Part shown: positions 3,339 through 36,516 of the stretch, piece after piece
How positions within the stretch are numbered: the first letter of the stretch is position 1
Layout: every line of letters starts with the position of its first letter
Translations under genes and position numbers: made by a program
The notes under the pieces: generated by a model
Told to the model about the DNA's origin: nothing
What the model saw: only the letters and a program-made list of their open reading frames with translations
The model's database searches: none
Assembly: GCA_000002445.1 (NCBI GenBank)
Contig: CM000208.1
Span: 1,792,001-1,856,000 of the forward strand
Length of the DNA stretch: 64,000 nt
Direction: 5' to 3'
From: Trypanosoma brucei
Taxonomy: Eukaryota

Positions 3339-4700
3339 TCACCTGTGAAGAAAGTCGATAATAAGCCGCAGAGGTCCCTCAACATACGCCTGCAGGCAGC
3401 ACTTCGTTTCCATCATTTGCATCCACTCTGCCTCACGCAACATTTCATCGAGTGTGACCCGAATAATGTCTTCAGCACTACCACCACCAACACAATACTG
3501 CCCAAGCGGGAAAGAACTCCCGGTGCCTGGAAGGCCCTCCAACGCCGCTTTCGCCCGCTGTATCACCTGCTTTAGCACTCGCCTATCATGTTCAGTTAAT
3601 GGCGCTCGCCCTTTGTTGTCATGCGAGAGACAAGAAGGACGGACACCAACCCAGCGAATGGGAAGAAGCGCAGCCACAACGGATGTCGACAATTCGGGGA
3701 CACGTTCCGCTGGCTGACATCGCCGGCCGCGGTTGATATCCTCCCCGAAAAGTCCCATGAAAGTAAGGGCAATGCGCAATCCATGAGGGTCCCCATCAAC
3801 AAGAACAAGAATCGGCAGCTCAGGTAACTCACGATGAAGGCTGCGAAGAAAAAGACGGGAGGCTCGGCACGGATAGCCCTTACTGCACAAGTAAGCACAT
3901 CGGTCTGAAATAGATTCACTCCCCAGTGCGCTCTTAACATCCGCAAGGGTGTGCAGCGTGCTTTCCTTTTCCACTACAACAAGTGCAGCTGTGACACCAT
4001 TGCCACGACCCGCTCCTGCAGCCCTGAAGTTGTGCGCATGTAAACCAAGTGTTGTGCTGACAAGTACACCGGAAATGTGATGTTTGGCATTGACCTCCAC
4101 AGAAGGCACTTTGGCACTGGGAACGCACGTCGGCAACTCCTGTGCACCACCCGACACTAATGAGGTCGAGGTTGCGGAAACTGTAGGAATGTCAAATGCA
4201 AGGTTTCCAAGAAGAATGCTCTTCCCACTCGCTCCAATACGAAGGTCCTCACGGGTGTAGCGACGGCGCTCACCGGCAGATGATGCTGGTGGAAGCGGGC
4301 AAACACAACTCATCCATCGACAGAGTCGCTCAATGCTGCAGTGGGTGTCGCGCTGTCCGTTTGGAAACAGTTCTGTATTGCGGTAGTACACATCCCGTTC
4401 AGTGCACAGTAAACCCTCCTGAACCATATTAACGACGCAACAAAGCACATGCAAAGCCTGGGCATCATACCGCAATAGTTCTGAGCACCTCCCTCTTAAT
4501 GTTTGCATCTCATCACCCACCGCAGTACCATGGGGGAGTAAAGGCACCTGCTGCCCCTGCACAATGAGACTGAGGAAGTGAAAACTGTGCTTTTGTGAAG
4601 TCCTCGCGCGCGCACCAGTGGGAGGTGGAGAAAATAGAGAAGTGAGATACGCCCGAGTGATGGCCTCCGCCGCGTTCATCACCTCCTTGTCACTGAGCAT
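3339..4700 (-). CDS. SPO11: SPO11 / topoisomerase VI subunit A-like meiotic DNA double-strand-break transesterase
   Basis: 453-aa ORF. It has the winged-helix catalytic-tyrosine motif TERDVYYRNTELF (compare RDI(F/Y)Y.N.ELF in SPO11/TopoVIA). Toprim motifs are present: LVVVEKESTLHTL, SKGYPCRASRLFL (compare GKGYPD...R.FL) and DGDPHGLRI (compare DADPYGLEI). Confidence 0.88.
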   Translation of the reverse strand: MLSDKEVMNAAEAITRAYLTSLFSPPPTGARARTSQKHSFHFLSLIVQGQQVPLLPHGTAVGDEMQTLRGRCSELLRYDAQALHVLCCVVNMVQEGLLCTERDVYYRNTELFPNGQRDTHCSIERLCRWMSCVCPLPPASSAGERRRYTREDLRIGASGKSILLGNLAFDIPTVSATSTSLVSGGAQELPTCVPSAKVPSVEVNAKHHISGVLVSTTLGLHAHNFRAAGAGRGNGVTAALVVVEKESTLHTLADVKSALGSESISDRCAYLCSKGYPCRASRLFLRSLHRELPELPILVLVDGDPHGLRIALTFMGLFGEDINRGRRCQPAERVPELSTSVVAALLPIRWVGVRPSCLSHDNKGRAPLTEHDRRVLKQVIQRAKAALEGLPGTGSSFPLGQYCVGGGSAEDIIRVTLDEMLREAEWMQMMETKCCLQAYVEGPLRLIIDFLHR

Positions 4701-5774: not shown

Positions 5775-8700
5775 CTACATCTGGTGTATCATCGCAAGGG
5801 CAACGCGAAATTCTTCGTATGTCATGCGGCCGTTACCACGTCGCCTCATTCCTTCGAACATCTTTGACATCTTGCCCTTGGACGGAGGCTGTCCAAAGAA
5901 ATCCAACATCTTGATGTCTCTTTCGAAGGCTTCCCCATCGATGGTACTGCGCAAAATGTCGCATATTGAGCTGCGGTTGCCTGCAGACGATGCGGCAACG
6001 CGGGACAAGAGGGAACTGACGTAGCCCTGCTTCCGCAGCTCCTCTTTACACTCGAGTTTGCCGCCATAATGAACCCACAGACGTGGCACATCTTCCGCGG
6101 ACGCGTGCAGAAGACTCTCCCACAACCATCCCTTTAGTGCTGCCTCATCCGAATTTCTGGCGGGATTACCAAAGTAATGCTGTGGGTCGCACACCCAATC
6201 ATCTTCCCTCGATTTCGGTCTTTCGCACTCCACATCGGGCCCATTTCCACTGACCTTTTCATCAAGTCCAATGTGTGCCGGTGCCAGGGGGACAAAAGTC
6301 CCTTCCCTCTCAGTAAGGACGTCAATAAACTGCTTGGTGTCGAGCCCATGCACGAAGCTAAACATGTGACCAGTGTAGTATCCATCGTTTAACTCGTGTC
6401 GCTTACTACCTGTGTAACGAACTAGCGGGTTCTCCGCCCACTCTGACAAGTCGGTGGGGTCATGATCAACGTGACATAACGCACGAACAAGTGGGTCAGG
6501 CGCAAAATCTCCCGTGCCGCACCACAGATCGCGCTCCTTGTACGCTTGCAACGGCCCTTCACTCGCTAACACGACGTTATCGATACGGTTGGGTCTTACT
6601 GGAAGGTCATAATCCTCCCAATCAGAGAAGAGTTCACCGCGGAAAGAAGTGGGAACCGCTCTCTCGGGGTCAGGGTCACCAATGACATCGTGCAGAAACT
6701 TTTTCCAACTGCAGTCCCGCTGGTCCCAGCTCACTATATAACAGTGGACGTCATTGACGCCAGGCTCGCTCTCGATCATGCGTTCGCATTCAAAAGGAAT
6801 AGCGGCGTTGACAACGTAAACATCTTCTGCATGGAACTTCGTTATTTCCATATCGTAGGCAAGATGGACATGCTGCTGTTGCGGGAGGGACCACTTAACG
6901 TAGAGTTGCGAGGGTGTCAACGAGAAGCGGATGAGGGCCTCACGGGCGCCAACAACACGTTGCGACTTCGCGGCCTCTTTCCATTCCTCACCGAACGCGT
7001 CGTAGAAATCGTCCTCTCCACCAGGTGTCACATCCAAATAGCCATTGGTACACGTTGTTGCGTAGAGCATGGGGGAGGAAAACTGTTTTTCGATAAGTGT
7101 CGGGGTCGTTCTCTTGCGAACCTCCCGCTTTATCCGTATACCGTTTTCATTGAGAACCCTCTCCAATAGACCCATCACCTTCACGTTGCCTGCTGCATGA
7201 GGTTTCAAAATGATCATAGCGGTATTCCTGTAGAGCAATGAGGGGCCCGTCTCCGCCGGCTGCGGGGCCCTTGAAGAAACTGTCATGGGCCCTTCGGCTT
7301 CCTCCCCTAGTGTGGAATGTCGCTCCTGCGTTGGCGTGCTAGCGGTGCCATCACGTCCTCCGTCATGAGCACACTCATTAGCGGGGAGTCGCGCCGCTCC
7401 AGTTGGATCAACCTCCTCCTCCTCGCGCTTCAACTCCTCCGACAACGCGGTCATCATAAACATGACACGGGAGGTGTCACATTGGCCAAGATGTTCGAAT
7501 ATGCTCATCTTGATTCCTCCGGACAACACCTCAGGGTTTTCGACCCATGTTTGTAGCACACACTCGAGCACTCCTTTCCGCAAAAGCAAAGAACCAAGAT
7601 AATCTTCTTGAACGGAGTACTTCACACACTTCGTACGCTCTCTAATCGCCTGGATGGCACCTTGACTAACGTGCAGACCGTTACGCAGCTCATCTGGTGG
7701 TTCAGTTATCCCGTAATCTCTCCATCTGCGATTCAGTTGTCCCCGAATGCTCGTTGGCACAGCATCCGCTGGGGACTCGCTCCCAACAACCTCCTCTAAG
7801 AATGTGGGCCAGTCCATCTCACGGGGCTCCCACGACACGACATACCAGTGATGCATCGCCTCAGATGATTCGAGGAAGCATTTCAACCCCGGCATGAGGC
7901 CATTTACGACAAACACGCCATCAAACGGCAACTCAAAAATTTCAAGGCCTGGGCGAACCATCAACCGCCTTGATGCCGCCGTACACTTATAGAAGAGTTG
8001 AACAGGTGTAATGTTACTTAGCGCAACCAGCGCCTCGTACGCGTTTACCAGTACGCCGCCCTCAAGCAGGTTGCACCAACTAACCCCAAAACTCAGCTGC
8101 ACTCTGTCCCTTTCCTTCCGTGACAATTTAATAGTTGAAACATCGCAGTCCGCGTACTCCAGCTCAACAGCGTAAAGGTGCTGAACAAAATCGCGCTCAC
8201 GTAAGGTGGCAGCGCTCACATCACCTTCCTCGTCAATCCGCACCCTCGCGCGCGCAAAGACCGTCTCAACCGTCAAAGCAAAGCCACGGCACAGGGAGCC
8301 GGTCTTCATCAACACAAAAGCAGAGTTACGCGGCGCCTCGGAAAGATGTGCAAAATTCTCCGACTGGAGAAGTTGTAATGCCTCCTTGCTGTTCATCCTG
8401 CGCGCCATATCGAATAGGAATCGGCCGTCGCCACAGGGGGTACGTGGGTTTGTTAGACACCTTCTCATTACGTATGGTGTGATAGACAGTTCATCCATTC
8501 CAAAACGACACACCGCGTCACGTTTGATTCCCAACGAAAGCCACATTTGTTTCAAACGCATCGCCTCCAGAGGACTCGCGGATGCCATCACCGCACCCTC
8601 AAACGAGTCCGGTGGCCGCCGTAGCCCGGCAGCCTTCCACTCCTCACATAGGACCTGCTGCAAGCTTCCCGGTCTGGCTTCCTTAAGGTAAGGATCCCCA

Positions 8701-11700
8701 ATGATGTAATCCATAAAATGAGCGTAATCCATGTCGCTGCTATTCCACGATACTGTCAAAAAATATTTCATGTTGGCCTCACCGCAAAACGTTTCCACAG
8801 TGTGAAGGGCAAACCCGTTAACAACATAAACGTCATGGTCGGGCATCTTACCGACGAAACAGTTTGGGGCTATGCGCGCCAGAGGTTCACACATCAGCCA
8901 CCTATCCCTTAGGTATGCCGCCGAGTAGTCAAACTCCACAGCTGCGTCCACAGCGTTGAACACCTTTCGCGGGTCCCACATCGTTCCAAAAGTGCTGAGG
9001 AAAAGGGACAGGGCCTCCGAGTCGAGTGCATACTGGTAGGGAGATTGTCTGACTGCGTATTTGAATACGCCGTCCTGGACGGCGTGAGCCACGCTGCTTA
9101 GATCCTGATTTCCACCAACCATGCTTCCACTTCCGTCGATCCGTATGTTATAGTGGCGCAGAAAATCGGCGATATAGTTAATCACACGATCACTTGCTTC
9201 CGATGAAGTGCAGGCGGGATTGACCACAATGAAGGCGTAGTTCCGCTTCAAGTTTCCCTCTTCATCCTTCAGGGTTGACGAGGTGTCCCCTTCGGGGCAG
9301 AGAGGCTTCCCTTCCGCCCGCAGCACGCCTTTACATCCGTCAACACACTCTTTTCCAGTGTCCCTTTTCACCTTGTACTCGTGGCTGGACGAGAGCTCGG
9401 GGGGAACCGGCACAAATCTTGGTGCCTGGGGTGAAACGATGTGCATTCCACCAGACGACTGCAGCCCGATTAGTTGCGCTATCAGAAGTGGGTTCTCCGT
9501 GCATAACTTGTCGAACGCATCGCCCATGGACTCCAATGGCTCCTCTCTGTGTCGCACAAGGGGGTTCTCAAGTATCTTACGAAGATACCCGGGGTCTACG
9601 CCACCCATAACCAGTAACCGTCCGAAAACATCCTGTTCCAAGCTTACCCCAAGCCAAGAGACACGATCTGCAAGCCCCTCAACAGGCGTGGCAGAGGCGC
9701 AAAAACCGTTGTCAATACCGTCTGGCTGCCGTTGCAGACCGAGCTCCACCCAAGATTTGTACAGTGTGTGGCGAAGAGATGATTCCTCAGCCTTTTCTGG
9801 CACATCTGTACCGATCACGTACCGGTGGAAATCCCCCCACGTCATTATCTCGCTATCCCATGACACAACGTACCAAGAAACGTGGGAGCCAGCGTACATT
9901 CGCGAACGCAAATAAGGATAGAACCCATTGACAACATAAAGCCCCTCCCTCTCTAAGTAAGCAATGTAAAGGGAAGGAGCCAAGCACACCTTACGTGGTG
10001 CCTCATCCCAATCCTTTAGCAACTGCAAAACGCCAATCCTATCCACCGCCTGCGCTGCATTGATAACCAAATGAAGGTTCATCGCGGTATTCCACGTGAT
10101 ACCGAAGGTAGCATCAAACTCTGCCATCTGTTTTGTGCTGATGGGAATCTCGTGCACTGCGCGTGTCATGGCGTTGCGATAGAGGGTGCACTGCTTGCGG
10201 TCGGCAAGTTCCTTATCAAAGACTTCCGCCATGGGTACGCGACCCGAAGAAATTACCTCAATACGGTGTTGCAACAGTGCTTTTGGGATCCACGCTTCCA
10301 CATGCTTTGTGCATGCGTGCGGTTTGACCCACAGAAATGCGTAATTCATTTTCAAACCGCGCAAAAAACGTGAAGTAATAACCTTCATGCGACGAACCAC
10401 TTCAGAACTCTGTACGTGATACGAAAGATCAGACCTTGTATATTGTGGCAGAAAACATCCGGTTGCGCTCCAGTTCTTCCTTGATGTCCATGACTTCGGA
10501 GGTGGAGACGACGTATCATCAATATTCTTGATCGCCTTTACCCCTTCCTCCTCCTCTTCATCATCCTCATCTTGCGGGTTGCGTTCACCGTCTATGTACG
10601 TCGTAAGCATTGAAAGCGGCACACCTTCCAGTAGGAGGCGCTGTACAAAGTGGTCCTCCGGTAACTGAACGTCCAGCCAAATTTCTCGATCAACGGTACC
10701 CTCCAAAGGACCTTGCGAAACTGAAACGGCAGCAGACCAACGCGAGGCTGGCTTGAATGGCAACCCGAAACCCTTCCACTCATCCGCAAACGTGCGCTGC
10801 AAGCTTCCCTCCGTTGCTTTGTAGGGAATACAGTCGTCACTGAAACCAACCAAGCGCTCAGAGAGGTCGTGCCAAGTCCAAACATCCTCCTTCCACTCCA
10901 CATCAAAGACGTGAGTCACGCTCCCAGGTTTTCCATGGGTCTCCCGAACAAAGGGAACAAAACCATTTAGCACGTATATTTCGTGGTCGGTTAGGTGAAC
11001 CACCCAGCAGTTTGAGTGAAGCTGCACCGGTTGTACTGACTCCCACAGATGAAGGAGCTCCGTTGGTGTTAAACCCAGTACCTCGCAAGCAGAGGTTGCG
11101 CCCATCAACTGTCCACTGATAACACAACCCTCCCACGTATATCCGAATTGTGCATGAAACTGCTTTTTGATCGATGAACTGACGTTTCCGCACATATCAT
11201 CTTTTTTGAAGTCAGCCCAGTGCGCCAGCTTAAGGAATTCATTGCTGCCGAGGTACCGTTTCTCGACGCTTCTGCTCAATAATGTTAGCTCCCGCACCAC
11301 CGCTACATCAGCGGCAGCAAAACAATTCCTCACAGTTTCTATAGTCCACTCGTTGACGGCAAAGGGCCTCAGTACTACCACTGCTCGGTTGACCGATCGT
11401 TCGTTGTACTCTGCAAGAACATGCTGCTCTGCCTCGCACATAAGGTCCACGACTTCAGAAGTTTGTAAGTTCTCTAGAAGGTCAAAAACATGACCGGATC
11501 GCACCCCATCGGCCATTACAACCGCCGGATTCGACCGCCAGCCGTACAGCAGCGCACCTGTCAACCCACGCTCTTGCAGCCGTAGTGTGAGTGGATCGTG
11601 TGTGAGTGGTGATCCGATCCACAGGTAGCGCTCCAGCACTGCCTCCAGCGGACCCGCCGAGGCGTGGACCCCGTTGTTTGTTGTTGTGGGAATGCCCTGC

Positions 11701-13340
11701 AGCCCCAGTTCGCGCCAGCGGTTTTGTATCAACCCGCGCAAACTGGTTGGCGGTGCTTTGGCGGGGTTCGTACACCCAACCAGCTCCTCACGGAAGCTCC
11801 TCCAAGTCAGATGTTCTTCGAGCCATGAAACCACGTAGCACGTTACCTTCGCATCCTTCCGCTCATAGCTGTCCCGAATGTATGGAAAGAAGCCGTTAAT
11901 CACAAAAGCATTCTCCTCAGAGAGGCGCGCAACGTACGCTCCAGGGGCAACCTTCAACACATCAGTGCATGAGCACCACATCTCGTACAACTCGGTGGAG
12001 GATATATCCCCAAGGATGCGCAAGGCAGAATCAGCATTCCACACCCGTCCACTCCGAACCAACTCCTTCCAGGACATGCCAAACCGCTCCTGGAATTCTT
12101 GCATTGTTTTGGGGCTCAACTCGATCAAATCGGGTGTTAAAACAGCGGCGTACTTCGCAATGGTTCCGTAATGCTGCTCCATCACGTGCCTCGACGCTAT
12201 TTCGCTTCCAGAGATATGGTGTTGAGACAAGATTTGTACGCCCTTAACCTGTGTGAGTCGTTCCTCCACCAGCGCTCGGGTTTCGGGGGTGTTGGCGTGG
12301 GGTTTCACAAACAGCAGGGCCCTGTTGCGTACCTCGTCTGGATCTTCATCGTTTAGTACAATAGTCCAATCAGCTATGCGTGAAGGTGAAATCGGAGTAT
12401 CAGCTTGATTCTTCCGTTCACTTAGGCACTTTTGTCTCTCATCAGCATAAACAGCGGCCACTAGACAGGTAGCCTCACTACTCTGCATGTCTTCTGTAAT
12501 CTCAAATACAGAGCGACACGCGCCCTTGTAGCTGATGGGGGGATTTTTCATCAGTCCCTCAACAAAACCTCGCCCAACACCCTCTTGCAGCAGCTGCCGC
12601 CCAAAGTCATCTTCGTTGATACCACGATGCATCCACACAGAGCGGAGCGCAAGTGCCTCAATGGGCCCATTGGCATATATCAGGCCGTTGTCCGCAATGC
12701 TTGGTTGTTCACTGAGCCCGTATTCCTCCCAGTTCTCGTACATCAATCGGCGGAGGGACGTTGAGTCGGCTTCGCTGGGGTCCGCCGCGCCGATCACCTC
12801 TAAACAAAACCGTTTCCACGAGTACCGCGCCTCGGGCCATGAAAGGACGAAGAAACAAATCTTACTAGTGGGAGCGGTGAAGGAATTAAATAGCAGCGGG
12901 TAAAAGCCATTAATTACATATAGCCCTTCCTCTTTGAAATATGATACATAGAACCCGTACTCAAGCCGAACCCGCAATTTGGATGACCACCAACGGGCGT
13001 TTAATCCTTCCATAGTTGTATTGAGGGCTACCATAGCATCCTCGGGGGTCAGCACACGCCGTTCCTCCATCGCGACGGTCCAAGATTCACCAAACGCAGA
13101 GAAAAAAAGCATGGCAGACTCCTCTGAAGCGAATGTCCCCATTTCTAGAGAGGAGGACATGACACGCGCCGCAGTTGCGCTGTAATGTCGCTCCACATAC
13201 GCGCCCCGGCTAACCTCCTGGCCTGTCAGTAGCTGCATGTCGTCCACGCGAATCCCATGGGAGTCAAAATGATCTCGTGCCTTCTCAATAAACGTATCCC
13301 TGCATGCACTGGGTTTAACTAGTACGAATGATGTATTCAT
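5775..13340 (-). CDS. Giant 2521-aa protein built from seven tandem ~330-360-aa modules, each a divergent nucleoside diphosphate kinase (NDK)-like domain with a large insertion. The C-terminal ~200 aa is non-repetitive and ends in a degenerate EF-hand-like motif
   Basis: Uninterrupted 7.5-kb ORF with a genuine ATG at approx 13338-13340. Seven NDK-like motif series recur. Motif 1 (compare NDK IKPDG): LVKPSA, FVKPHA, VLRPFA, WVKPHA, VVNPAC, LMKTGS, ILKPHA. Motif 2 (compare NDK MVWEG): YV(V/I)NGF...VVSW(D/E/N)...W..F....(I/V)G. Motif 3 (compare NDK PGTIRGDF): P(T/G/E)S(L/I/F)R(G/R/H).....W...GL. Motif 4 (compare NDK NIIHGSD...EI.LWF): NGVHASAGPLEA...W, NGFCASATPVEG...W, NGLHVSQGAIQAIRER, NVVLASEGPLQAYKERDLW, NGLIYANGPIEAL..SVW, GAVMASASPLEAM...W, SAAVSVSQGPLEG...W. 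The histidine at the NDK catalytic position is retained in only 2 of 7 modules. Confidence 0.8.
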   Translation of the reverse strand: MNTSFVLVKPSACRDTFIEKARDHFDSHGIRVDDMQLLTGQEVSRGAYVERHYSATAARVMSSSLEMGTFASEESAMLFFSAFGESWTVAMEERRVLTPEDAMVALNTTMEGLNARWWSSKLRVRLEYGFYVSYFKEEGLYVINGFYPLLFNSFTAPTSKICFFVLSWPEARYSWKRFCLEVIGAADPSEADSTSLRRLMYENWEEYGLSEQPSIADNGLIYANGPIEALALRSVWMHRGINEDDFGRQLLQEGVGRGFVEGLMKNPPISYKGACRSVFEITEDMQSSEATCLVAAVYADERQKCLSERKNQADTPISPSRIADWTIVLNDEDPDEVRNRALLFVKPHANTPETRALVEERLTQVKGVQILSQHHISGSEIASRHVMEQHYGTIAKYAAVLTPDLIELSPKTMQEFQERFGMSWKELVRSGRVWNADSALRILGDISSTELYEMWCSCTDVLKVAPGAYVARLSEENAFVINGFFPYIRDSYERKDAKVTCYVVSWLEEHLTWRSFREELVGCTNPAKAPPTSLRGLIQNRWRELGLQGIPTTTNNGVHASAGPLEAVLERYLWIGSPLTHDPLTLRLQERGLTGALLYGWRSNPAVVMADGVRSGHVFDLLENLQTSEVVDLMCEAEQHVLAEYNERSVNRAVVVLRPFAVNEWTIETVRNCFAAADVAVVRELTLLSRSVEKRYLGSNEFLKLAHWADFKKDDMCGNVSSSIKKQFHAQFGYTWEGCVISGQLMGATSACEVLGLTPTELLHLWESVQPVQLHSNCWVVHLTDHEIYVLNGFVPFVRETHGKPGSVTHVFDVEWKEDVWTWHDLSERLVGFSDDCIPYKATEGSLQRTFADEWKGFGLPFKPASRWSAAVSVSQGPLEGTVDREIWLDVQLPEDHFVQRLLLEGVPLSMLTTYIDGERNPQDEDDEEEEEGVKAIKNIDDTSSPPPKSWTSRKNWSATGCFLPQYTRSDLSYHVQSSEVVRRMKVITSRFLRGLKMNYAFLWVKPHACTKHVEAWIPKALLQHRIEVISSGRVPMAEVFDKELADRKQCTLYRNAMTRAVHEIPISTKQMAEFDATFGITWNTAMNLHLVINAAQAVDRIGVLQLLKDWDEAPRKVCLAPSLYIAYLEREGLYVVNGFYPYLRSRMYAGSHVSWYVVSWDSEIMTWGDFHRYVIGTDVPEKAEESSLRHTLYKSWVELGLQRQPDGIDNGFCASATPVEGLADRVSWLGVSLEQDVFGRLLVMGGVDPGYLRKILENPLVRHREEPLESMGDAFDKLCTENPLLIAQLIGLQSSGGMHIVSPQAPRFVPVPPELSSSHEYKVKRDTGKECVDGCKGVLRAEGKPLCPEGDTSSTLKDEEGNLKRNYAFIVVNPACTSSEASDRVINYIADFLRHYNIRIDGSGSMVGGNQDLSSVAHAVQDGVFKYAVRQSPYQYALDSEALSLFLSTFGTMWDPRKVFNAVDAAVEFDYSAAYLRDRWLMCEPLARIAPNCFVGKMPDHDVYVVNGFALHTVETFCGEANMKYFLTVSWNSSDMDYAHFMDYIIGDPYLKEARPGSLQQVLCEEWKAAGLRRPPDSFEGAVMASASPLEAMRLKQMWLSLGIKRDAVCRFGMDELSITPYVMRRCLTNPRTPCGDGRFLFDMARRMNSKEALQLLQSENFAHLSEAPRNSAFVLMKTGSLCRGFALTVETVFARARVRIDEEGDVSAATLRERDFVQHLYAVELEYADCDVSTIKLSRKERDRVQLSFGVSWCNLLEGGVLVNAYEALVALSNITPVQLFYKCTAASRRLMVRPGLEIFELPFDGVFVVNGLMPGLKCFLESSEAMHHWYVVSWEPREMDWPTFLEEVVGSESPADAVPTSIRGQLNRRWRDYGITEPPDELRNGLHVSQGAIQAIRERTKCVKYSVQEDYLGSLLLRKGVLECVLQTWVENPEVLSGGIKMSIFEHLGQCDTSRVMFMMTALSEELKREEEEVDPTGAARLPANECAHDGGRDGTASTPTQERHSTLGEEAEGPMTVSSRAPQPAETGPSLLYRNTAMIILKPHAAGNVKVMGLLERVLNENGIRIKREVRKRTTPTLIEKQFSSPMLYATTCTNGYLDVTPGGEDDFYDAFGEEWKEAAKSQRVVGAREALIRFSLTPSQLYVKWSLPQQQHVHLAYDMEITKFHAEDVYVVNAAIPFECERMIESEPGVNDVHCYIVSWDQRDCSWKKFLHDVIGDPDPERAVPTSFRGELFSDWEDYDLPVRPNRIDNVVLASEGPLQAYKERDLWCGTGDFAPDPLVRALCHVDHDPTDLSEWAENPLVRYTGSKRHELNDGYYTGHMFSFVHGLDTKQFIDVLTEREGTFVPLAPAHIGLDEKVSGNGPDVECERPKSREDDWVCDPQHYFGNPARNSDEAALKGWLWESLLHASAEDVPRLWVHYGGKLECKEELRKQGYVSSLLSRVAASSAGNRSSICDILRSTIDGEAFERDIKMLDFFGQPPSKGKMSKMFEGMRRRGNGRMTYEEFRVALAMIHQM

Positions 13341-20312: not shown

Positions 20313-23300
20313 TCACCTGCGACGCCTCTGCTTAGAGATTCTCCACGAGTTTCCGCTCTCCCATGCGCGCAGAATTGGATTAAGGCGTTCGGCACGTTGC
20401 TCTTTCGTTAATTTCCCCTTCCGCGGTTTGCTGTAAAACGCTGGGGCGAGTTCCACAAGCCAACGTGGCTCGATGGCCAGTATCTCACGCATGTACTCGC
20501 GGCTTGTTAATTGAACCTCGTTGTACAAGAGATATTTTGGTGGTGTGTCCCGTAAACAGGACGAAGGATGAACATAAACCTCGCGCCGCTCCGCAAGCGT
20601 GGCGTAGGCCACGTCCGTGATACGTCTTGCAGCATTGAAAAAGTACCCAGCGGTAATGGCCCGTCGCACCTCCGTAAGTGAGGAGTCGTTATGATGCTCA
20701 ATGTTTGTATGTCGCTTCCGCAACATTTCGCTAAGTTGGTCACGGGTATCGCGAGCCTCCATAAGCATGCGGTGTTTTAAGAAGTTCCGCTTACACCAGT
20801 TTTCGCTCAGACCGTTGGCCACCCATGCATCGTACACAGCAAGCAGTGTAATGTGGTCACCCTCCGGTTGGTGAAACTGCCGCTTTGCTGCATCTGCCGC
20901 CTCGTGTTGATCACGCGGCCGGTAAAATACGCCACGCTTTTGAGCTGCGAGCATAGAGACTATGGTGAGCACGGGCTCGCTGCAACCCAAGTCGACAGCC
21001 GTAAGAAGTGTCTTGCTGTGCGAGGGATCAATGGGCAAATGAGCCATACGACCTCCCAGCGGCGTCAGAAGCCCATCCTCATCCAATGCCTCGAGGTAGC
21101 GCAACTTTTGTAACGCCGTCACCAGCGTCTCTTGGGGAGGTGGATCCATGAGGTCCAGAGCGAAGAGGTCATTAATTCCCATTGCCTTCAATTGCAGAAC
21201 TACGTGGAACAAGTTCGAACGCTGAATATCAGGAACGGTGGCAGGGTCCATATCCTGGCGAAACTGAATCTCCGTGTACATACGAAAGCACTTGCCGGGC
21301 CCAATACGCCCTGCACGCCCGGCCCGTTGACGCGCTTGTGCTTGCGAGATGGGCATGATTTTGAGTTGCTCCATCCCTGTCTTCGGGTCGAACACATTTT
21401 GCTTACTATACCCGCTGTCCACCACGTAAGAAAGGTTACTAATTGTAATGGAAGTTTCTGCGACATTTGTGGCGAGCACGACCTTCCTGCAATGTGGCGG
21501 CGTCGGCTCGAAAACGCGTGACTGCACATCTTGTGGCAGTGTCGCAGTTAAGGGGAGGATGAGCATGTCCGGCACCGGGAGGTCACTGAGGCCCCGAAGC
21601 CGCTCCATCCAGCGGAAGAGACGGTCACCACCAAACTCAATCTCCTCTTGTCCTGTAAGAAATACAAGGACATCGCCTGGTGGCTCCTCAAGATGTAACT
21701 TCATCACAGTTTTTAGAGCACAGTCGAGGTAATCCTCCGTTGGCTCCGCAAGGAAATACGTGTCAACAGGAAAAGTGCGACCTTCGATAAAAAACACATC
21801 GTGGACGTTGAAGTACGAACAGAATTTCTCCCTCTCAAGTGTGGCAGAAGTGACAATAACTTTTAGTGTTGGCCGCTTGTGTGTTGCGTTGCGTACAATT
21901 GCAAAGAGCAAATCAGTGTTGACCGACCGCTCGTGTGCCTCATCGAGGATGATAACGCTATACCTCTGAAATGAGTCATCAAGAAGGGCTTCACGCAGCA
22001 ACATACCGTCTGTCATGTACTTTATGCACGTGAGGGAAGATGTGACATCGCGAAACCGGACAGTGTAACCGACTTCCTCACCGAGGCGGCAACCGTACTC
22101 CTCGGCCACACGGATTGCAAGTGTCTCCGCCGCCACTCGCCGGGGTTGGGTGCAACAAACAACACCGTTCTTACCGTAACCGTGCTCAACAAGATACTGA
22201 GGAATTTGTGTTGTTTTGCCACTGCCAGTTTCTCCCACCAACACAGTTACTGCATGTGCATCAACGTGCTGTAGGAACCGATCACGAAATGCATAAATGG
22301 GCAGCGAACGACGCTGCTCTGCAAGGCTCTCAGAGGTTTCCATCATACCGAAGCGGGGCTTCTCCCCGAAACTGTGTTTCATCCACGGTGGAAGCGCAGA
22401 ACGAGAACCACGGCCAAGTCCGCCCCTATGGAGGTGTTCTTCCGGGCGCTCTAATAATTCCCGATCGAGGAACGTATTGCCCTTGTAGTGGGTTCCATCC
22501 TCCTCGTTATTACCCTCCTCATCATCTCCCTCTTCCTTTCTGTCAGCAGCATCATTCGGTTCATAGAAACCGCGCGCCTGCTCTGCCAACCGCTGCTGCC
22601 GCCGCTCCTTCGCTTGAAGAATCTGCCGCTCCTTGTTACGTTGCTGCTGCGCCAAGGCAGCACGCTTCATGGTATTAGTTTCAATCTCTTCGGCGCAAGC
22701 TTGTTGCACGACGCGGCGTGCAATGATGGCTTCTCGCTGTGCCGGTGTGCTCGCCCTCATCAACTGCTCGGACGGCAACAACGCCCGGTAGTTGATGGGT
22801 TTGTGTCGCACCAACCCACGCAAGAACAGGGGTTCTTCTTCATTCAGCTCCACCTGCTCCACATCCTCATCATCCGTCTTAACCTGAAGTAATTCCGACT
22901 CATCCAGTAACCCGGTGCGTACCAACTGCGCCAACTGCATTTTCTCCTCCGCTCTCACCTTCATCGCCGCTCTGCGCTCCGCGGGGTCCACTGAAAGGTC
23001 CTGCAAAGTCCTTTGTCTACCGGCGGCGCTGTCGCCTCCCTCGTTTGCATCCCGTCGGGCCTCCTCTTCCTGCAGAATCTTTTGCCTGAGAGTTTCTTCA
23101 ATTTCCCGCCGTTCCTGCTCCACGATGGCGAGTGCCCCAGCTGCGAGACATTTCGACCAGTCGATGTCACCCAAAAGTGATCGCATTAGGCACGCAAGGT
23201 CCTGCAACTGCGAGAGCTGTATGGGTGGCTCATCATTCTCATCTCCATTGATAGCGCTATCAAGCGCGTCAACCAGCGACTTGTTTCTCTCCTCTGCTGA

Positions 23301-23540
23301 AACTTCCTTCAAGTCATCACTATCCCGTTTTTTTTCATTCGCCTCAGCGAAAAGAGAAACAAGCCCCTCCACGTCATCATAAAGTCCCTCTGCCTCCGCC
23401 GCACTCTCCGGCCTACCAAGCACGTGCTCTAGCCTGTGGTACAGCTCATTTTTGCTGTAAATGAGTTGCAATTTCCTCAGCACACATAACTCATCGCTCA
23501 TTACCTTTTCGCCGCACTTTTTTCCCGGCGCAACCCCCAC
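20313..23540 (-). CDS. DEAH-box ATP-dependent RNA helicase of the spliceosomal PRP2/PRP16/PRP22 (DHX16/38/8) family, with a charged ~400-aa N-terminal extension
   Basis: Helicase motifs are present: GETGSGKTTQIPQYL (I), DEAHERS (II), SATL (III), FLTGQEEIE, TNVAETSITI (V) and QRAGRAGR (VI). A C-terminal HA2/OB region (ITAGYFFNAARR...) is also present. 1075 aa. Confidence 0.9.
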   Translation of the reverse strand: MGVAPGKKCGEKVMSDELCVLRKLQLIYSKNELYHRLEHVLGRPESAAEAEGLYDDVEGLVSLFAEANEKKRDSDDLKEVSAEERNKSLVDALDSAINGDENDEPPIQLSQLQDLACLMRSLLGDIDWSKCLAAGALAIVEQERREIEETLRQKILQEEEARRDANEGGDSAAGRQRTLQDLSVDPAERRAAMKVRAEEKMQLAQLVRTGLLDESELLQVKTDDEDVEQVELNEEEPLFLRGLVRHKPINYRALLPSEQLMRASTPAQREAIIARRVVQQACAEEIETNTMKRAALAQQQRNKERQILQAKERRQQRLAEQARGFYEPNDAADRKEEGDDEEGNNEEDGTHYKGNTFLDRELLERPEEHLHRGGLGRGSRSALPPWMKHSFGEKPRFGMMETSESLAEQRRSLPIYAFRDRFLQHVDAHAVTVLVGETGSGKTTQIPQYLVEHGYGKNGVVCCTQPRRVAAETLAIRVAEEYGCRLGEEVGYTVRFRDVTSSLTCIKYMTDGMLLREALLDDSFQRYSVIILDEAHERSVNTDLLFAIVRNATHKRPTLKVIVTSATLEREKFCSYFNVHDVFFIEGRTFPVDTYFLAEPTEDYLDCALKTVMKLHLEEPPGDVLVFLTGQEEIEFGGDRLFRWMERLRGLSDLPVPDMLILPLTATLPQDVQSRVFEPTPPHCRKVVLATNVAETSITISNLSYVVDSGYSKQNVFDPKTGMEQLKIMPISQAQARQRAGRAGRIGPGKCFRMYTEIQFRQDMDPATVPDIQRSNLFHVVLQLKAMGINDLFALDLMDPPPQETLVTALQKLRYLEALDEDGLLTPLGGRMAHLPIDPSHSKTLLTAVDLGCSEPVLTIVSMLAAQKRGVFYRPRDQHEAADAAKRQFHQPEGDHITLLAVYDAWVANGLSENWCKRNFLKHRMLMEARDTRDQLSEMLRKRHTNIEHHNDSSLTEVRRAITAGYFFNAARRITDVAYATLAERREVYVHPSSCLRDTPPKYLLYNEVQLTSREYMREILAIEPRWLVELAPAFYSKPRKGKLTKEQRAERLNPILRAWESGNSWRISKQRRRR

Positions 23541-25008: not shown

Positions 25009-28000
25009 TCATCGTCTTCTATCCGGCGACTCCTGAGGAGAAAAAAGGAATCTCGTCATCATCTCCCGATTACGTCGTAGCGCCATGGGCCCCGACGGCA
25101 CGTCATCAAATCCCTTCGACGGGCTGCCTCCCTCATGAGCATCGAGGTGTTTCATGAGTGTTCGCCGCCCTGACAACTTCCGCTTTACCTTCTCAAATTT
25201 CACAAGACCGTAAGGACTGCGACCCTTATCCATCAGGTTACCAATTTCAATAAATTTAGGAACATCGACAGTCCAAAACATACCAAAGACAGTGTGCTCC
25301 GCCTCCCACAGCAATACAGACTTGGTATCGGGGTTGTACGCCTTTATCAGTGCTGCACTGCGGCCAAAACCCACCACGTCATGCGCTATGGCAGTGTCGT
25401 AGTTCAGGAGGAGAACTGTGTTATTATTCTCCCGACGTGTGGCATCTCTAAGAATCGAATCGATATTCCCTTCCGTCACATCCTCCATGACCTCCACATG
25501 CACAAGCCACTCTTCATCATTGTGTTCATCGATTTGACTGTCACTTGACCCCCTTGTAGAATTGCGAGATTCCAGAAACATGCGGCAAATCTGGGCGAGA
25601 AATACTGTATCGATTTGCTTGTTAATCACTGAAAGAGATACATCCACGTCACGCCACGCAAATGCCTGAGTCCCCCGGCGACGTTGACGGTTCATTGTCT
25701 GAAGGTACGCCTCGTAAAATATCTCCTCTGGTGAGTAGAAGAATCCAAGCTGGGTGAAGGCGCACGAAAGTGCCTGGAAATGCGGCGATGGGCTAACATG
25801 GAAAATGTTCCGTAGAGGCAGCATACGCAACGGTGTTTCTCGAGAATACTCAAGTGGAAACGATGGTGCCGGAAGAGTCGTGCAGTGTGACACTTTAAGG
25901 AAGCCACAACGGCGGTGAACGGTGTCCGCATCATGCATGGCCCTGAAGAGAGTGTGGAGGCACACGGACCATGTGCGGAAGTATCGGTTGGGATTCGTAT
26001 CCATCACCGTCACGCCGCCGGTTGCCTTATTGTAACCAACAACTAGGCCTGTGGAACCAAATGGACGGGAGTCACCGAACACCTCAATTTCATTTGTGTT
26101 GAACAACATGACGAGGGCCTTGCCACGGTCCGCCAAGCATTCCTCCATGATTTGTTCAAACTCCTCGACGGTTACACGTGCTTTGTTGCCGTTTCGCCTG
26201 TCAGTATGATAGGCCTTTACGCTTACATTAAGACCGACATGCTCCACGTACGTCGTGAGGCAAACAGCCATTGATTCAAGCGTGAAGTAGCGCAGCATCA
26301 ACGACGATATTTCGAAGGGTAGGGCAACAATAACGTCTTCAAATGTCGTAGGACAGCCCAACTCCGTTAAAGTTAGCGCAATCATCGTTGGGCTCAATGG
26401 CAATGATGGAAAACACAATGTTCTCATCACCTCCCTTCTCGTCACACCGAGTGCATCTTGGTCCCTTAGTAGAGCGAGGTATCTTTGCACAGTTGGATCC
26501 ACGCGCCTCAAGGCCCCAACCCGCGGAGCCTGCGATTCATGTCCCAAAGGCAGCGAGTCACACCATGTCTCATCATGACTTAATCCCACATGTGTGCTGG
26601 CTGCGGTGCGCTTGGAGAATATAAGGTATCCGTTTGAGGTCATAGCCCGATGCAGGCGTTCAAGTGAACAAGTCCAGAGCTTCATGAACTTCTTCGGGTG
26701 CGCATCAATAAGCGACACCACCTGTGACTCCTCATCATAACCGGAGAGCACGCACCACTGGGGAGTATTGCTGACGTACAGGACATTGTGCGCAACGTTA
26801 GCATTATACATAATCACCATGACGTGCTCCGGGGCGTCAGGATCCTTGTTTGCATTCTTTACGTCGGTGAGAATTGACTCCAGCTCGAACACAGAGATGG
26901 TTGGCACCGCGTCTTCTCGAGAGGTGTTTGTGAGAATAGGGTAAATGGAGACATCGTAATTACGCTCCGTAAGGCGGATGTACTCTCGCGCGTATTTGAA
27001 TACCTCTCCCAACGGCAGCGTGCTGTCGATGAGCACCTCTGCTGGAAACTTCATGGTGCGGACAATATCCGAAACTGGTAGCCCATTACCGTGGCCGTGC
27101 GCACTTGCTCTGTCACCTCCGAGAAGGTGCATCGCCCACGCAACTGCGATGATGTGAGGGCTGGTGTGGCCTGAGATGGCAGAGGCATGGGTTCCCATAG
27201 ATGTCGTGCCAAGTACATTTCCTCCCGCCAGTTCAGGCGAGAACATGGATTGAACTTCGTCGTGGGACATCACCGGCACGCTATCCTTGCGAAAGATACG
27301 CATGAAACCACGCGCTCGTTCATTCTCCAACGGTACTGTCATCGCCTTGAAAAGGGCTGCGGCAGGAACTTCAAACAACCTTACGTGCAACTGATCATCA
27401 ACGATACCTTCTGCGAGGGTAACCATCAGCTCCACTACACACCGCACCTCCACAATAACAGCGTACACTCCATTGTTATTTTTAGAATATTGCCTCTCCT
27501 GATCCCTTAATCCAACACGGATAGAGTCTGCGAGGGCGGAGACGTCGTCATCTCCATCCACAAAGTTGTCAACGAATGTTTCCTGCTGGAGAACGTATGG
27601 ATCATAATTTACAATGCGTACTGCTTGAATCTGCTCTTCACTGTCGTTGGCTATGGCTTTTGTGAACTCGTGCAACTGCATGCACGTCTGCCGATCGCCC
27701 ACCTCGTTGCGACCAAGTTCCACCTGCCCAACGACGGGCGAGATGTCAAAATGGACAACAGAAAGGCCATACTCGTTCTTGAAGCGATTGTCAACATCAA
27801 TAAACTCACGGAGAATGTCGCTCATGACCTGTAGTGTCTGGACACCGCTGTGGAGGTAGTGGAGGGGTAAGTGGACAGCAAAAAATATATCTTCCATGGT
27901 AACGCACTTTTTGCGATCCCTGCAGCCGCGCGCACCTCCGAGAAGGTAGGAAAGAGCAACTGCAGCAGCACCAAAGTGGCCGCATTCCATAATAGCCTTA

Positions 28001-35592: not shown

Positions 35593-36516
35593 GCAAGCTA
35601 AGGTACTTCTCGACCTTTGCGTTGGGCAGCTATCACCCGACAGAGAAGAAAAAAAAATACAACGAATTATAAAAATTACTTTGATGAAAGAGCGGAAAAA
35701 AAAAAAAGAGCACGGCATGAGGCGAATTGAGGGAGCTTTCAAGAACACGTGGTATCGTTTTTTAAAAAAAAATATCATATCCTGGTAAATGGGCTATGAT
35801 ACACAATTGAGTACAGATACAAAGGTGGTACATATACCTATCTTTCCCACTTAAAATCATTTCTTCCTTGCTTGCCACCACCAAAAGGCAAAACAAAGAG
35901 GCAACAGTAAACCACCTCCATCTTATTATAATCCACTTGCCCTGTGCCCTACTCAGCACCCCTTTAGGGATCACAGCAATAAGTGGCTGCGGATCACCTC
36001 CCTTCTCATGTACAGTCACATATCACACACATATACACACATACATACATACATTTGCATAATGAGATTCAATGATGCACGATCGCACAAAACTACACGG
36101 AATAAAGGAATATCCACAGTATGGAGAAAAATTAGTAGTAAACAGTAGCAGCGCCAGAAGTGGTACCGTTAGTAGCGGTCATGGAAAAAAAAAACAAGAC
36201 CCTGGAAAATGAGAAAAGAAGGGGGAAAAAATAGGTTAAAACACTTCAGAAAAAAATAGAATGTGGAACAAAGAAACAAAATCGCGAAGGCTAAAGACAA
36301 AATAACCAGGAAAATAATAAAAGACAGGGAAACGGGAAAATGTGAGCACTGAAGTGAAAACAAAGCGCACAACAAAGGTCAACGGAAGTTGTTGTTGAAA
36401 TGCCATGCGTCCCCACTTTCCCCTTCCACCAGCTACAACCCACGCACAAACACCTCTCCATCCTCCCTCCTTCCGCACACATGGTCGATTTCGCAAAAAC
36501 AGAGGGAACTTTTCCT

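What the first reader, a model, noticed from the sequence alone, without database searches (positions are those of the whole stretch)
5775..13340. Giant protein made of seven tandem, mostly catalytically degenerate NDK-like modules
A single 7.5-kb ORF encodes seven consecutive ~330-360-aa modules. Each reproduces the order of nucleoside-diphosphate-kinase landmarks: a (V/I)KP(H/S)A start, YVVNGF...VVSW, P.SLRG...W, and an NG.HAS.GPLEA...W tail equivalent to NIIHGSD...EI.LWF. Each module carries a ~100-aa insertion. The histidine at the catalytic position is kept in only two modules, in NGVHAS (module 2) and NGLHVS (module 6). In the others it is C, L, Y, M or V, which suggests a scaffold or nucleotide-binding role rather than seven active kinases. 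The protein ends in a degenerate EF-hand-like motif, FEGMRRRGNGRMTYEEF. Multi-NDK-domain proteins (NME7/8/9, TXNDC3/6) are axonemal in other eukaryotes. A seven-fold array of this size is unusual. I cannot tell whether it is already annotated as such.
Basis: partly seen in the sequence, partly recalled or inferred. Interest (0 to 1): 0.7.

Follow-up and report, generated by a model that had tools for sequence, protein, structure and literature searches.

The report
FLAM1: seven-module NDK-like flagellar giant
This is the trypanosome flagellar protein FLAM1, a 2521-residue chain of seven enlarged nucleoside-diphosphate-kinase-like units of which only one still has a complete active site, while free-living relatives keep all seven intact.

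Summary
Window 5775-13340 (minus strand) is one 2521-aa ORF made of seven homologous modules of about 310 aa (pairwise BLASTP E 1e-13 to 1e-42). The gene is already catalogued. Its 90% cluster holds T. brucei XP_822958.1 and T. equiperdum 'Flagellar Member 1', and databases call it 'nucleoside-diphosphate kinase'.

Each module adds three things to the NDK core:
- an 11-aa Kpn-loop insert (shown for module 2);
- a 70-105-aa C-terminal extension.

The same 300-aa module occurs as single-copy proteins in many protists, where the catalytic His is 122/122 conserved.

In the window only module 2 keeps all ten active-site residues. Module 6 keeps the His but has lost three binding residues. Bodo saltans keeps the His motif in all seven modules, so the array decayed in the parasites. 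The C-terminal EF-hand pair is also degenerate.

Known gene, ordinary enzyme superfamily, undescribed subfamily and decay pattern. Moderate interest.

The parts
5775..13340 (-). Complete ORF, 2521 aa plus stop: the Trypanosoma brucei-group FLAM1 (Flagellar Member 1) gene, annotated 'nucleoside-diphosphate kinase, putative'.
   Evidence: The 90% cluster of the closest hit holds T. b. brucei XP_822958.1 / Q38AP0 and T. equiperdum 'Flagellar Member 1'.
12384..13340 (-). Module 1 (aa 1-319), a degenerate long-NDK module. It keeps K9, Y53, F146, R197 and N218. The catalytic His is replaced by I221, and the T94, S120 and E129 equivalents are lost.
   Evidence: Weak Pfam NDK hit to the N-terminal half (17.8 bits).
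11391..12332 (-). Module 2 (aa 337-650), the only module with all ten NDK active-site equivalents: K346, Y391, F484, R517, T524, R535, N556, H559, S561 and E570. The His559 codon is at nt 11664-11666.
11892..12167 (-). Inserted domain of module 2 (aa 392-483, 92 aa), between the Tyr52 and Phe60 equivalents of NDK, in the alphaA-alpha2 hairpin. It is a helical plus three-strand domain with no solved structural neighbour. Equivalent insertions lie at nt 12906-13181, 10962-11234, 9924-10190, 8814-9074, 7899-8171 and 6804-7079.
10353..11396 (-). Module 3 (aa 649-996), strongly degenerate: R658, F702, Q848, A870, S873 at the His position, D884. It has an acidic, low-complexity stretch in its C-terminal extension.
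   Evidence: It is among the least conserved modules across species (49% identity to T. cruzi).
9399..10352 (-). Module 4 (aa 997-1314). The His position is C1214 here and in T. congolense, but His in T. vivax, T. theileri, T. melophagium, T. cruzi and T. rangeli. It is followed by a linker of about 50 aa.
8328..9248 (-). Module 5 (aa 1365-1671), the most degenerate: N1374, Q1422, Q1561, G1582, M1585 at the His position, L1596.
7404..8333 (-). Module 6 (aa 1670-1979). It keeps K1679, Y1723, R1866, N1887, H1890, S1892 and E1901, but has lost the Phe60 (L1815), Arg88-like (L1848) and Thr94 (E1855) equivalents. The His1890 codon is at nt 7671-7673. It is followed by a linker of about 57 aa.
6279..7232 (-). 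Module 7 (aa 2037-2354). The His position is L2258. The F2087, L2216 and P2223 substitutions are shared with module 7 of the distant orthologue P0010.
5778..6023 (-). C-terminal tail (aa 2440-2521): a degenerate EF-hand pair. The second loop, RRRGNGRMTYEE, has Arg at Ca-ligand positions 1 and 3.
   Evidence: window tail scores EF-hand_1 11.8 bits (below cut-off); the aligned tail of orthologue P0010 scores EF-hand_7 38.1 bits (above cut-off); the Bodo saltans orthologue is named 'EF-hand domain-containing protein'; tail sequences.

Best explanation
SHOWN. The ORF is the T. brucei-group gene for FLAM1, a flagellar protein. It is a single chain of seven homologous modules of about 310 aa, followed by a degenerate EF-hand pair.

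Each module is a nucleoside-diphosphate-kinase fold enlarged by three additions:
- an 87-92-aa domain inserted at the tip of the alphaA-alpha2 hairpin, which in canonical NDKs forms one wall of the nucleotide pocket;
- an 11-aa insert in the Kpn loop (shown for module 2);
- a 70-105-aa C-terminal extension.

This module type is an unnamed 'long NDK' subfamily. It is common as single-module proteins in protists, and there the whole NDK catalytic set is almost invariant.

The seven-module array arose before trypanosomatids diverged from bodonids. In Bodo saltans the catalytic His motif is intact in all seven modules, and the six modules tabulated keep the catalytic set (five completely). In a related metagenomic orthologue (P0010) all seven keep the His and five keep the full set. 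In Trypanosoma the array has decayed. Only module 2 keeps every active-site residue. Module 6 keeps the His but has lost three nucleotide-binding residues. The other five have lost the His.

INFERRED. Module 2 still works as a ping-pong phosphotransferase: NTP phosphorylates His559, which passes the phosphate to an NDP. This would give a nucleotide-regenerating activity anchored in the flagellum. The six decayed modules persist under purifying selection (46-64% identity between T. brucei and T. cruzi) as pseudo-enzyme scaffold or docking units. Ca2+ control through the EF-hand pair, probably present in the bodonid ancestor, has been lost or weakened.
For: - Repeat structure.
- NDK homology: Pfam PF00334 32.1 bits against GA 27. 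A module profile searched against PDB sequences returns NDKs for 22 of 24 hits, including all the best, in colinear order. hhalign to NME2 aligns NxxHxS...E...W.
- Active-site table: for the window, for orthologues.
- Family: 2249 representative proteins at E<1e-3 and 567 at E<1e-30, most of them single-module. In 122 single-module proteins His is 122/122, R105 122/122 and N115 121/122.
- Ancestral state: Bodo saltans has DNG[IV]H[AG]S in seven modules.
- Common origin of the array: linkers after modules 4 and 6 are shared, and module-7 substitutions are shared with P0010.
- Enzyme-type fusions of the module elsewhere: enolase and glutamine synthetase. Cytoskeletal or regulatory fusions: CAP-Gly, MORN and four EF-hands.
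- Flagellar location: the name Flagellar Member 1. FLAM1-8 came from the T. brucei intact-flagella proteome and were re-found by APEX2 proximity proteomics. FLAM1 was detected in T. cruzi flagellar proximity proteomes.
Against: - No enzyme assay exists, and activity of module 2 is inferred from residue conservation only.
- The Arg88 equivalent is displaced by one helical position (G-5 rather than G-4). It is conserved in the family, but I could not inspect model coordinates to confirm that it reaches the phosphate.
- In Leishmania (Viannia) FLAM1, module 2 is itself heavily decayed and only module 4 keeps a His. Catalysis may therefore be dispensable for whatever FLAM1 does in trypanosomatids.
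- The sub-flagellar position (axoneme, paraflagellar rod or matrix) could not be checked, because the primary paper (Subota 2014) is not in the library.
- The protein is absent from the sequences of solved T. brucei doublet-microtubule structures.
- Canonical NDKs need oligomers for stability. How a seven-module chain packs is unknown.
Confidence: 0.6

Rival explanations
1. FLAM1 is now purely structural in trypanosomatids. All seven modules, including module 2, are pseudo-enzymes that at most bind nucleotide. The chain serves as a long modular scaffold or spacer in the flagellar cytoskeleton. In this reading, conservation of the module-2 pocket reflects nucleotide binding for folding or sensing, not turnover.
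For: - Five of the seven modules have lost the His and module 6 has lost three binding residues.
- Leishmania (Viannia) FLAM1 has a decayed module 2 as well, which shows that the protein can persist without it.
- Degenerate modules remain 46-64% identical between T. brucei and T. cruzi, so they are under selection for something other than catalysis.
- The EF-hand pair is degenerate.
Against: Eight active-site residues of module 2 were tabulated and are invariant in all seven Trypanosoma species, in Phytomonas and in four further trypanosomatid-like orthologues, although overall module identity falls to 42%. Phytomonas also keeps the two remaining residues (F60, R(G-5)). That pattern is what selection for chemistry would produce; selection for fold alone would not.
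Confidence: 0.25
2. The long-NDK module has a different substrate from canonical NDKs. Candidates are a protein (histidine-kinase-type transfer), a dinucleotide, or a cyclic or other nucleotide. In this reading the inserted domain at the mouth of the nucleotide pocket sets that specificity, and FLAM1 module 2 performs this alternative reaction in the flagellum.
For: - The 92-aa insertion replaces the short loop between Tyr52 and Phe60, next to the base-binding wall.
- It is a confidently modelled domain with no known structural relative.
- The Kpn loop carries an 11-aa insert.
- The subfamily is separated from canonical NDKs by weak sequence scores (25-32 bits on PF00334).
Against: Every residue that contacts the phosphates and ribose in canonical NDKs is conserved in the family, which argues for the standard NTP/NDP chemistry. 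Nothing found here points to a particular alternative substrate.
Confidence: 0.13
3. The resemblance to NDK is a chance match of short motifs, and the repeats are an unrelated kinetoplastid-specific repeat.
For: Individual modules fall below the Pfam NDK threshold (17.8 and 16.7 bits, none for five modules).
Against: - The whole protein passes the Pfam threshold.
- All the best profile hits in the PDB sequence search are colinear NDKs.
- The catalytic motif is in register.
Confidence: 0.01

Closest known systems
Canonical nucleoside diphosphate kinases (NME1-4; Pfam PF00334), e.g. human NME2 and T. brucei NDKB (PDB 4fkx)
   Same: - Same order of elements.
- Module 2 keeps K12, Y52, F60, T94, R105, N115, H118, S120 and E129, with the NxxHxS...E..LW spacing identical.
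   Different: - About 310 aa rather than about 150.
- A 92-aa domain is inserted between Y52 and F60, 11 aa are inserted in the Kpn loop, and there is a C-terminal extension of about 75 aa.
- The Arg88 equivalent is shifted by one position.
- Seven copies sit in one chain rather than forming a homo-hexamer or tetramer.
- Six of the seven copies are degenerate.
Group II axonemal multi-NDK proteins: NME7/CFAP67/FAP67 (DM10 + 2 NDK), NME8/TXNDC3 (thioredoxin + 3 NDK), NME9, NME5/RSP23
   Same: - Flagellar or ciliary proteins with tandem NDK-fold domains, several of them catalytically impaired.
- Association with Ca2+ sensing: RSP23 is reported as a Ca2+-stimulated NDK, known to me only from a title in a reference list.
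   Different: - No DM10, thioredoxin or Dpy-30 domain (nothing at E<=10).
- The modules carry the insertion and extension, which those proteins lack.
- Seven modules rather than one to three.
- FLAM1 is not among the chains of the solved T. brucei doublet structures.
Unnamed 'long NDK' single-module proteins of protists, e.g. Guillardia theta XP_005837392.1 (300 aa, 'NDK-like domain-containing protein')
   Same: - The whole 300-aa module matches, including the insertion and C-terminal extension (E 1e-60 to 1e-75).
- Window module 2 is 28-39% identical to these proteins, in most cases more than to its sister modules.
   Different: - Those proteins have one module (two or three in diplonemid and dinoflagellate sequences) with an almost invariant catalytic set.
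- FLAM1 has seven, mostly decayed.
Bodo saltans CUF98075.1 / B6DT84 ('EF-hand domain-containing protein', 2366 aa)
   Same: It is the orthologue. It has seven modules in the same arrangement, linkers after modules 4 and 6, and a C-terminal EF-hand region.
   Different: All seven Bodo modules keep the DNG[IV]H[AG]S catalytic motif, and five of the six modules tabulated keep the full set. The tail of the related orthologue P0010 passes the Pfam EF-hand thresholds.
XRP2 / RP2 C-terminal NDK-like domain
   Different: Much more distant structurally and in sequence. It is a single domain and has no insertion.

Membership tests
NDK superfamily (Pfam PF00334, NDK fold) | Score at or above the Pfam gathering threshold (27 bits) | tested here: met
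   The whole protein scores 32.1 bits, E 1.2e-7. Single modules fall below it: M1 17.8, M2 16.7, and the other five no hit. Single-module relatives score 24.5-32.3 bits, and one of the ten scanned gave no hit.
NDK superfamily (Pfam PF00334, NDK fold) | beta-alpha-beta-beta-alpha-beta NDK fold with alphaA-alpha2 hairpin and Kpn loop | tested here: met
   [not shown]
NDK superfamily (Pfam PF00334, NDK fold) | Catalytic histidine in the NxxHxS motif | tested here: inconclusive
   Met in M2 (H559) and M6 (H1890). Not met in M1 (I221), M3 (S873), M4 (C1214), M5 (M1585) or M7 (L2258).
NDK superfamily (Pfam PF00334, NDK fold) | Complete nucleotide-binding set (K12, Y52, F60, R88, T94, R105, N115, S120, E129) | tested here: inconclusive
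   Only M2 has all of them, with the Arg one position earlier than R88. M6 lacks the F60, Arg and T94 equivalents. Geometry could not be checked on coordinates.
NDK superfamily (Pfam PF00334, NDK fold) | NDP kinase activity through a phospho-His intermediate | not testable with these tools
   This needs a biochemical assay of recombinant module 2.
NME7/CFAP67, NME8/TXNDC3 and NME9 (group II multi-NDK axonemal proteins) | N-terminal DM10 or thioredoxin domain followed by canonical-length NDK domains | tested here: not met
   No DM10, thioredoxin or Dpy-30 hit even at E<=10. The modules are about 310 aa with an inserted domain.
NME7/CFAP67, NME8/TXNDC3 and NME9 (group II multi-NDK axonemal proteins) | Resolved component of the doublet microtubule | tested here: not met
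   phmmer of the full protein against all PDB chain sequences gave no hit at E<=1. The same PDB copy contains the T. brucei 48-nm and 96-nm doublet structures (9e2g and 9e5c, seen).
Long-NDK module family (unnamed; e.g. Guillardia XP_005837392.1) | End-to-end match of the roughly 300-aa module, including the inserted domain and C-terminal extension | tested here: met
   The module profile matches positions 2-29x of the 316 profile positions in hundreds of single-module proteins, E 1e-60 to 1e-75. The consensus and near-invariant columns are shared.
FLAM1 (Flagellar Member 1) orthologue group of kinetoplastids | Full-length colinear orthology with proteins named FLAM1 | tested here: met
   Coverage is 97-100% of the query for the Trypanosoma orthologues, at 64% identity (T. 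congolense) down to 52%. The T. cruzi and Leishmania proteins are named Flagellar Member 1. The 90% cluster holds T. equiperdum 'Flagellar Member 1' and T. b. brucei XP_822958.1.
EF-hand Ca2+-binding pair (C-terminal tail) | Pfam EF-hand score above threshold and acidic ligands at loop positions 1, 3, 5 and 12 | tested here: not met
   The window tail scores EF-hand_1 11.8 bits against a 25.4 cut-off. The loop RRRGNGRMTYEE has Arg at positions 1 and 3. The homologous tail of P0010 passes (EF-hand_7 38.1 bits against 30).

The most novel reading that the evidence does not exclude
The roughly 300-aa module defines a third, so far unnamed, branch of the NDK/NME superfamily. It would be an ancient eukaryotic 'long NDK' whose active-site hairpin carries an inserted domain of a fold not yet seen in any solved structure, and which is often coupled to Ca2+ sensors or cytoskeletal adaptors. 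FLAM1 would then be a natural experiment: a seven-fold, all-active bodonid enzyme array was converted in the parasitic trypanosomatids into a scaffold with one active module and six pseudo-enzymes. Which module is retained differs between Trypanosoma (module 2) and Leishmania (module 4).
Probability: 0.35. Interest if true: 0.65.

Novelty: new variant of a known kind. Interest (0 to 1): 0.5.

Why it matters
FLAM1 is one of the larger named but functionally unstudied components of the trypanosome flagellum, an organelle needed for motility, division and transmission.

Showing that it is a seven-fold array of an enlarged NDK with exactly one intact active site gives a precise, cheap experiment: mutate H559 and assay module 2. 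It also gives a clean example of progressive pseudo-enzyme formation within a single polypeptide, with the all-active ancestor still living in Bodo.

Beyond trypanosomes, the work exposes a widespread protist NDK subfamily that current domain libraries catch only at borderline scores. This subfamily carries an inserted domain with no structural precedent, placed next to the nucleotide pocket. That may matter for how flagella and other compartments regenerate or sense nucleotides.

Tried and rejected
1. phmmer of the full protein against PDB sequences gave no hit. Only the module profile reached NDKs.
2. Pfam on single modules gave sub-threshold hits for M1 and M2 and nothing for M3-M7. Per-module Pfam would therefore wrongly 'refute' the finding, so profile and structure methods were needed.
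3. The search for homologous proteins with the seven-module alignment returned only 2 hits because of its word index. With the 64-sequence alignment it returned 22, few of them named. The exhaustive representative search was the informative one.
4. The primary FLAM paper (Subota 2014) could not be read by DOI or PMC id, so the sub-flagellar location of FLAM1 remains unverified here.
5. My remembered gene ID Tb927.8.4640 was wrong: it is CARP9/CMF19. No TriTrypDB ID is asserted.
6. Six literature searches for FLAM1 or NDK in the paraflagellar rod or axoneme found no description of the seven-module architecture. One paper loosely groups FLAM1 with paraflagellar-rod function.
7. Foldseek against AFDB50 was unavailable, so the inserted domain was compared with solved structures only.
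8. I considered an NME7/TXNDC3-type identity and rejected it, because the accessory domains are absent.
9. I tried assigning P0010 modules to Trypanosoma modules by pairwise identity. All seven are closest to module 2, which is a rate artefact. Shared linker positions and shared module-7 substitutions were used instead.
Full report
**1. The observation**

Window 5775-13340 is a single minus-strand ORF of 2521 codons plus a stop. It lies in a run of large ORFs that are nearly all on the minus strand, as in a trypanosomatid polycistronic unit.

I cut the protein at the recurring VKPxA starts. All 21 module pairs are significantly similar by BLASTP, with E 1e-13 to 1e-42 and 21-31% identity; most alignments cover about 250-330 residues and a few only 120-245. 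An HMM built from the seven-module alignment (A1) finds exactly seven full copies: aa 1-319, 337-650, 649-996, 997-1314, 1365-1671, 1670-1979 and 2037-2354. The repeat is therefore real and far beyond chance.

**2. Identity of the gene**

The closest database protein is essentially identical. Its 90% cluster holds T. brucei brucei TREU927 XP_822958.1 / EAN78130.1 / Q38AP0. NCBI calls this 'hypothetical protein, conserved' and UniRef calls it 'Nucleoside-diphosphate kinase'; it sits on a 4.05-Mb chromosome record. The same cluster holds the T. equiperdum protein named 'Flagellar Member 1'.

Full-length orthologues exist in several taxa:
- T. congolense (64% identity), T. vivax, T. theileri, T. 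melophagium, T. cruzi ('Flagellar Member 1') and T. rangeli;
- Leishmania ('Flagellar Member 1' / 'nucleoside diphosphate kinase, putative', 2697 aa) and Phytomonas;
- Bodo saltans (2366 aa, 'EF-hand domain-containing protein').

FLAM1-8 were defined from the proteome of intact T. brucei flagella, and a later paper reports that they were re-detected by APEX2 proximity labelling. FLAM1 was also detected in T. cruzi flagellar proximity proteomes (bioRxiv 10.1101/2023.07.09.548290). The protein is seen at protein level in T. cruzi metacyclogenesis proteomics (PMC11493278).

The primary paper (Subota et al. 2014) is not in the library, so I cannot state the sub-flagellar compartment. One Leishmania paper loosely lists FLAM1 with paraflagellar-rod function (PMC6022219). 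The gene is thus known and annotated. I found no open-access text that describes its seven-module anatomy.

**3. Are the modules NDK-like?**

Yes, by four independent routes.
- **Pfam.** NDK (PF00334) scores 32.1 bits for the whole protein against a gathering threshold of 27. Single modules are sub-threshold or silent.
- **Profile against PDB sequences.** A profile of the seven modules returns NDKs for 22 of 24 hits, including all the best ones. The match is colinear: module positions 3-53 align to NDK 2-53, and 179-200 to NDK 84-105.
- **Profile-profile.** A 64-sequence profile aligned to human NME2 by hhalign gives 82% probability and E 1.1e-5. It aligns ...VGCTNP..A.PTSLRG...NNGVHASAGPLEAVLERYLW with ...LGETNP..S.PGTIRGDF...[20 protein letters not shown]. 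This puts His559 on His118 and reveals an 11-residue insert in the Kpn loop.

**4. What is added to the NDK core**

The motif NGFFP of module 2 corresponds to RPFFP of NME2. The 87-92 residues between the Tyr52 equivalent (HY) and the Phe60 equivalent are therefore an insertion at the tip of the alphaA-alpha2 hairpin. It is present in all seven modules.

After helix alpha4, each module has a conserved 70-105-residue extension with the pattern D..FG..LL..G.....L..W..(D/N)P.V.

**5. The module is a widespread, unnamed subfamily**

An exhaustive HMMER search of 1.84 billion representative proteins found 2249 proteins at E<1e-3 and 567 at E<1e-30. Most are single-module proteins of 300-450 aa that match the module end to end. 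Named examples and other sources:
- Guillardia theta XP_005837392.1, 'NDK-like domain-containing protein';
- Aplanochytrium;
- the diplonemid Lacrimia (two modules), the dinoflagellate Gymnodinium (three modules) and a protein in the same 90% cluster as one from the choanoflagellate Bicosta;
- the dinoflagellate Polykrikos, three modules.

In 122 single-module proteins the catalytic set is almost invariant:

| Residue (NME numbering) | Conserved in |
|---|---|
| H118 | 122/122 |
| R105 | 122/122 |
| N115 | 121/122 |
| S120 | 121/122 |
| F60 | 120/122 |
| E129 | 119/122 |
| K12 | 116/122 |
| Arg at G-5 | 115/122 |
| Y52 | 114/122 |
| T94 | 113/122 |

This is the signature of an active enzyme family. 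Elsewhere the module is fused to four EF-hands, enolase, glutamine synthetase, CAP-Gly plus PH, MORN or ankyrin repeats. Window module 2 is 28-39% identical to these single-module proteins, in most cases more than to its sister modules.

**6. Pattern of decay**

In the window only module 2 keeps 10 of 10 residues: K346, Y391, F484, R517, T524, R535, N556, H559, S561 and E570. Module 6 keeps K, Y, R105, N, H1890, S and E, but has L1815, L1848 and E1855 at the F60, Arg and T94 positions. At the His position, module 1 has I221, module 3 S873, module 4 C1214, module 5 M1585 and module 7 L2258. Modules 3 and 5 have also lost R105 and N115.

Across species:
- For module 2, eight residues were tabulated (K12, Y52, T94, R105, N115, H118, S120, E129). 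They are invariant in all seven Trypanosoma species and in four unnamed trypanosomatid-like orthologues. Phytomonas keeps all ten.
- Module 4 has His in T. vivax, T. theileri, T. melophagium, T. cruzi and T. rangeli, but Cys in the window and in T. congolense.
- Bodo saltans has DNG[IV]H[AG]S in all seven modules, and five of the six modules tabulated keep the full set.
- The metagenomic orthologue P0010 keeps His, N, S, E and R105 in all seven, and the full set in five.
- In Leishmania (Viannia), module 2 is itself badly decayed and only module 4 retains a His.

The seven-fold array has a single origin, for two reasons. The window protein, Bodo and P0010 all have modules 1-4 contiguous, a linker, modules 5-6, a linker, then module 7 and an EF-hand tail. 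Module 7 of P0010 also shares the F/L/P substitutions of window module 7.

The decayed modules are still 46-64% identical between T. brucei and T. cruzi, so they are maintained by selection.

**7. The tail**

The last 80 or so residues align with a region that passes the Pfam EF-hand-pair thresholds in P0010 (38.1 bits). The window tail reaches only 11.8 bits, and its second loop, RRRGNGRMTYEE, has Arg at ligand positions 1 and 3. By homology it is the remnant of a pair.

**8. Mechanism**

Shown: the anatomy, the homology, the conservation pattern and the flagellar association by name and proteomics.

Inferred: module 2 still carries out the ping-pong NDK reaction through phospho-His559, anchored in the flagellum by six pseudo-enzyme modules. 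The ancestral Ca2+ control has been lost.

The main rival is that the whole protein is now a scaffold. The decay of module 2 in Leishmania supports this rival; the strict conservation of the module-2 pocket in Trypanosoma argues against it. A second rival is an altered substrate dictated by the inserted domain at the pocket mouth.

The protein is not in any solved structure, including the T. brucei doublet-microtubule entries present in the PDB copy. It is therefore not a modelled doublet component.

**9. Comparison and verdict**

This is a member of the NDK superfamily but not of the NME7/8/9 group. It has no DM10 or thioredoxin domain, and its module type is different. It belongs to an unnamed 'long NDK' subfamily.

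The gene is already catalogued, so the bare finding is not new. As far as I could find, three things are undescribed:
- the single surviving active site;
- the all-active bodonid ancestor;
- the inserted domain without structural precedent.

I rate it a new variant of a known kind, of moderate interest.

Noticed in passing
window 39103-44508 (-): An 1801-aa ORF with a full set of CFAP65 Ig-like domains (E down to 1e-66). It is a second flagellar gene in the same window. Trypanosomatid gene order implies no functional link.
   Followed up: partly
window 3339-4700 (-): The 453-aa ORF immediately downstream of FLAM1 carries the Spo11/TopoVI-A N-terminal and Toprim domains (E 1e-8 and 3e-14).
   Followed up: partly
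window 25009-28476 (-): A 1155-aa ORF with a partial phytochelatin-synthase-like (papain-fold) domain at aa 751-855 (31.5 bits). The rest of the protein has no Pfam match.
   Followed up: no
window 1-64000: 19 of the 22 ORFs of at least 200 aa, including all the long ones, are on the minus strand (one polycistronic unit). The first 2 kb are AT-rich (GC 0.39, against about 0.5 elsewhere). GC skew is negative throughout.
   Followed up: no
window 20313-23540 (-), 33109-35778 (-), 45425-47419 (-): Other neighbours are a DEAH-box RNA helicase with HA2/OB domains, a Cid1-type nucleotidyltransferase (PAP/TUTase-like), and an ABCG-type half transporter.
   Followed up: partly
P0022 (Leishmania lindenbergi/braziliensis FLAM1, 2697 aa): In Leishmania (Viannia), module 2, which is the intact one in Trypanosoma, is heavily decayed. 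Module 4 is the only one with a His in an ...HAS context. The surviving module therefore differs between genera.
   Followed up: partly
P0088, P0074, P0072, P0065, P0058, P0047 (family members from the representative search): The long-NDK module occurs fused to enolase, glutamine synthetase, CAP-Gly plus PH, MORN repeats, ankyrin repeats, or a calmodulin-like four-EF-hand domain. These fusions hint at energy metabolism and at cytoskeletal or Ca2+ coupling.
   Followed up: partly
P0043 cluster: A 1349-aa protein with two degenerate long-NDK modules shares a 90% cluster with a Bicosta minor (choanoflagellate) protein. The family therefore reaches Opisthokonta. No animal, fungal or plant member was seen among the named hits.
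   Followed up: no
[not shown]
   Followed up: no
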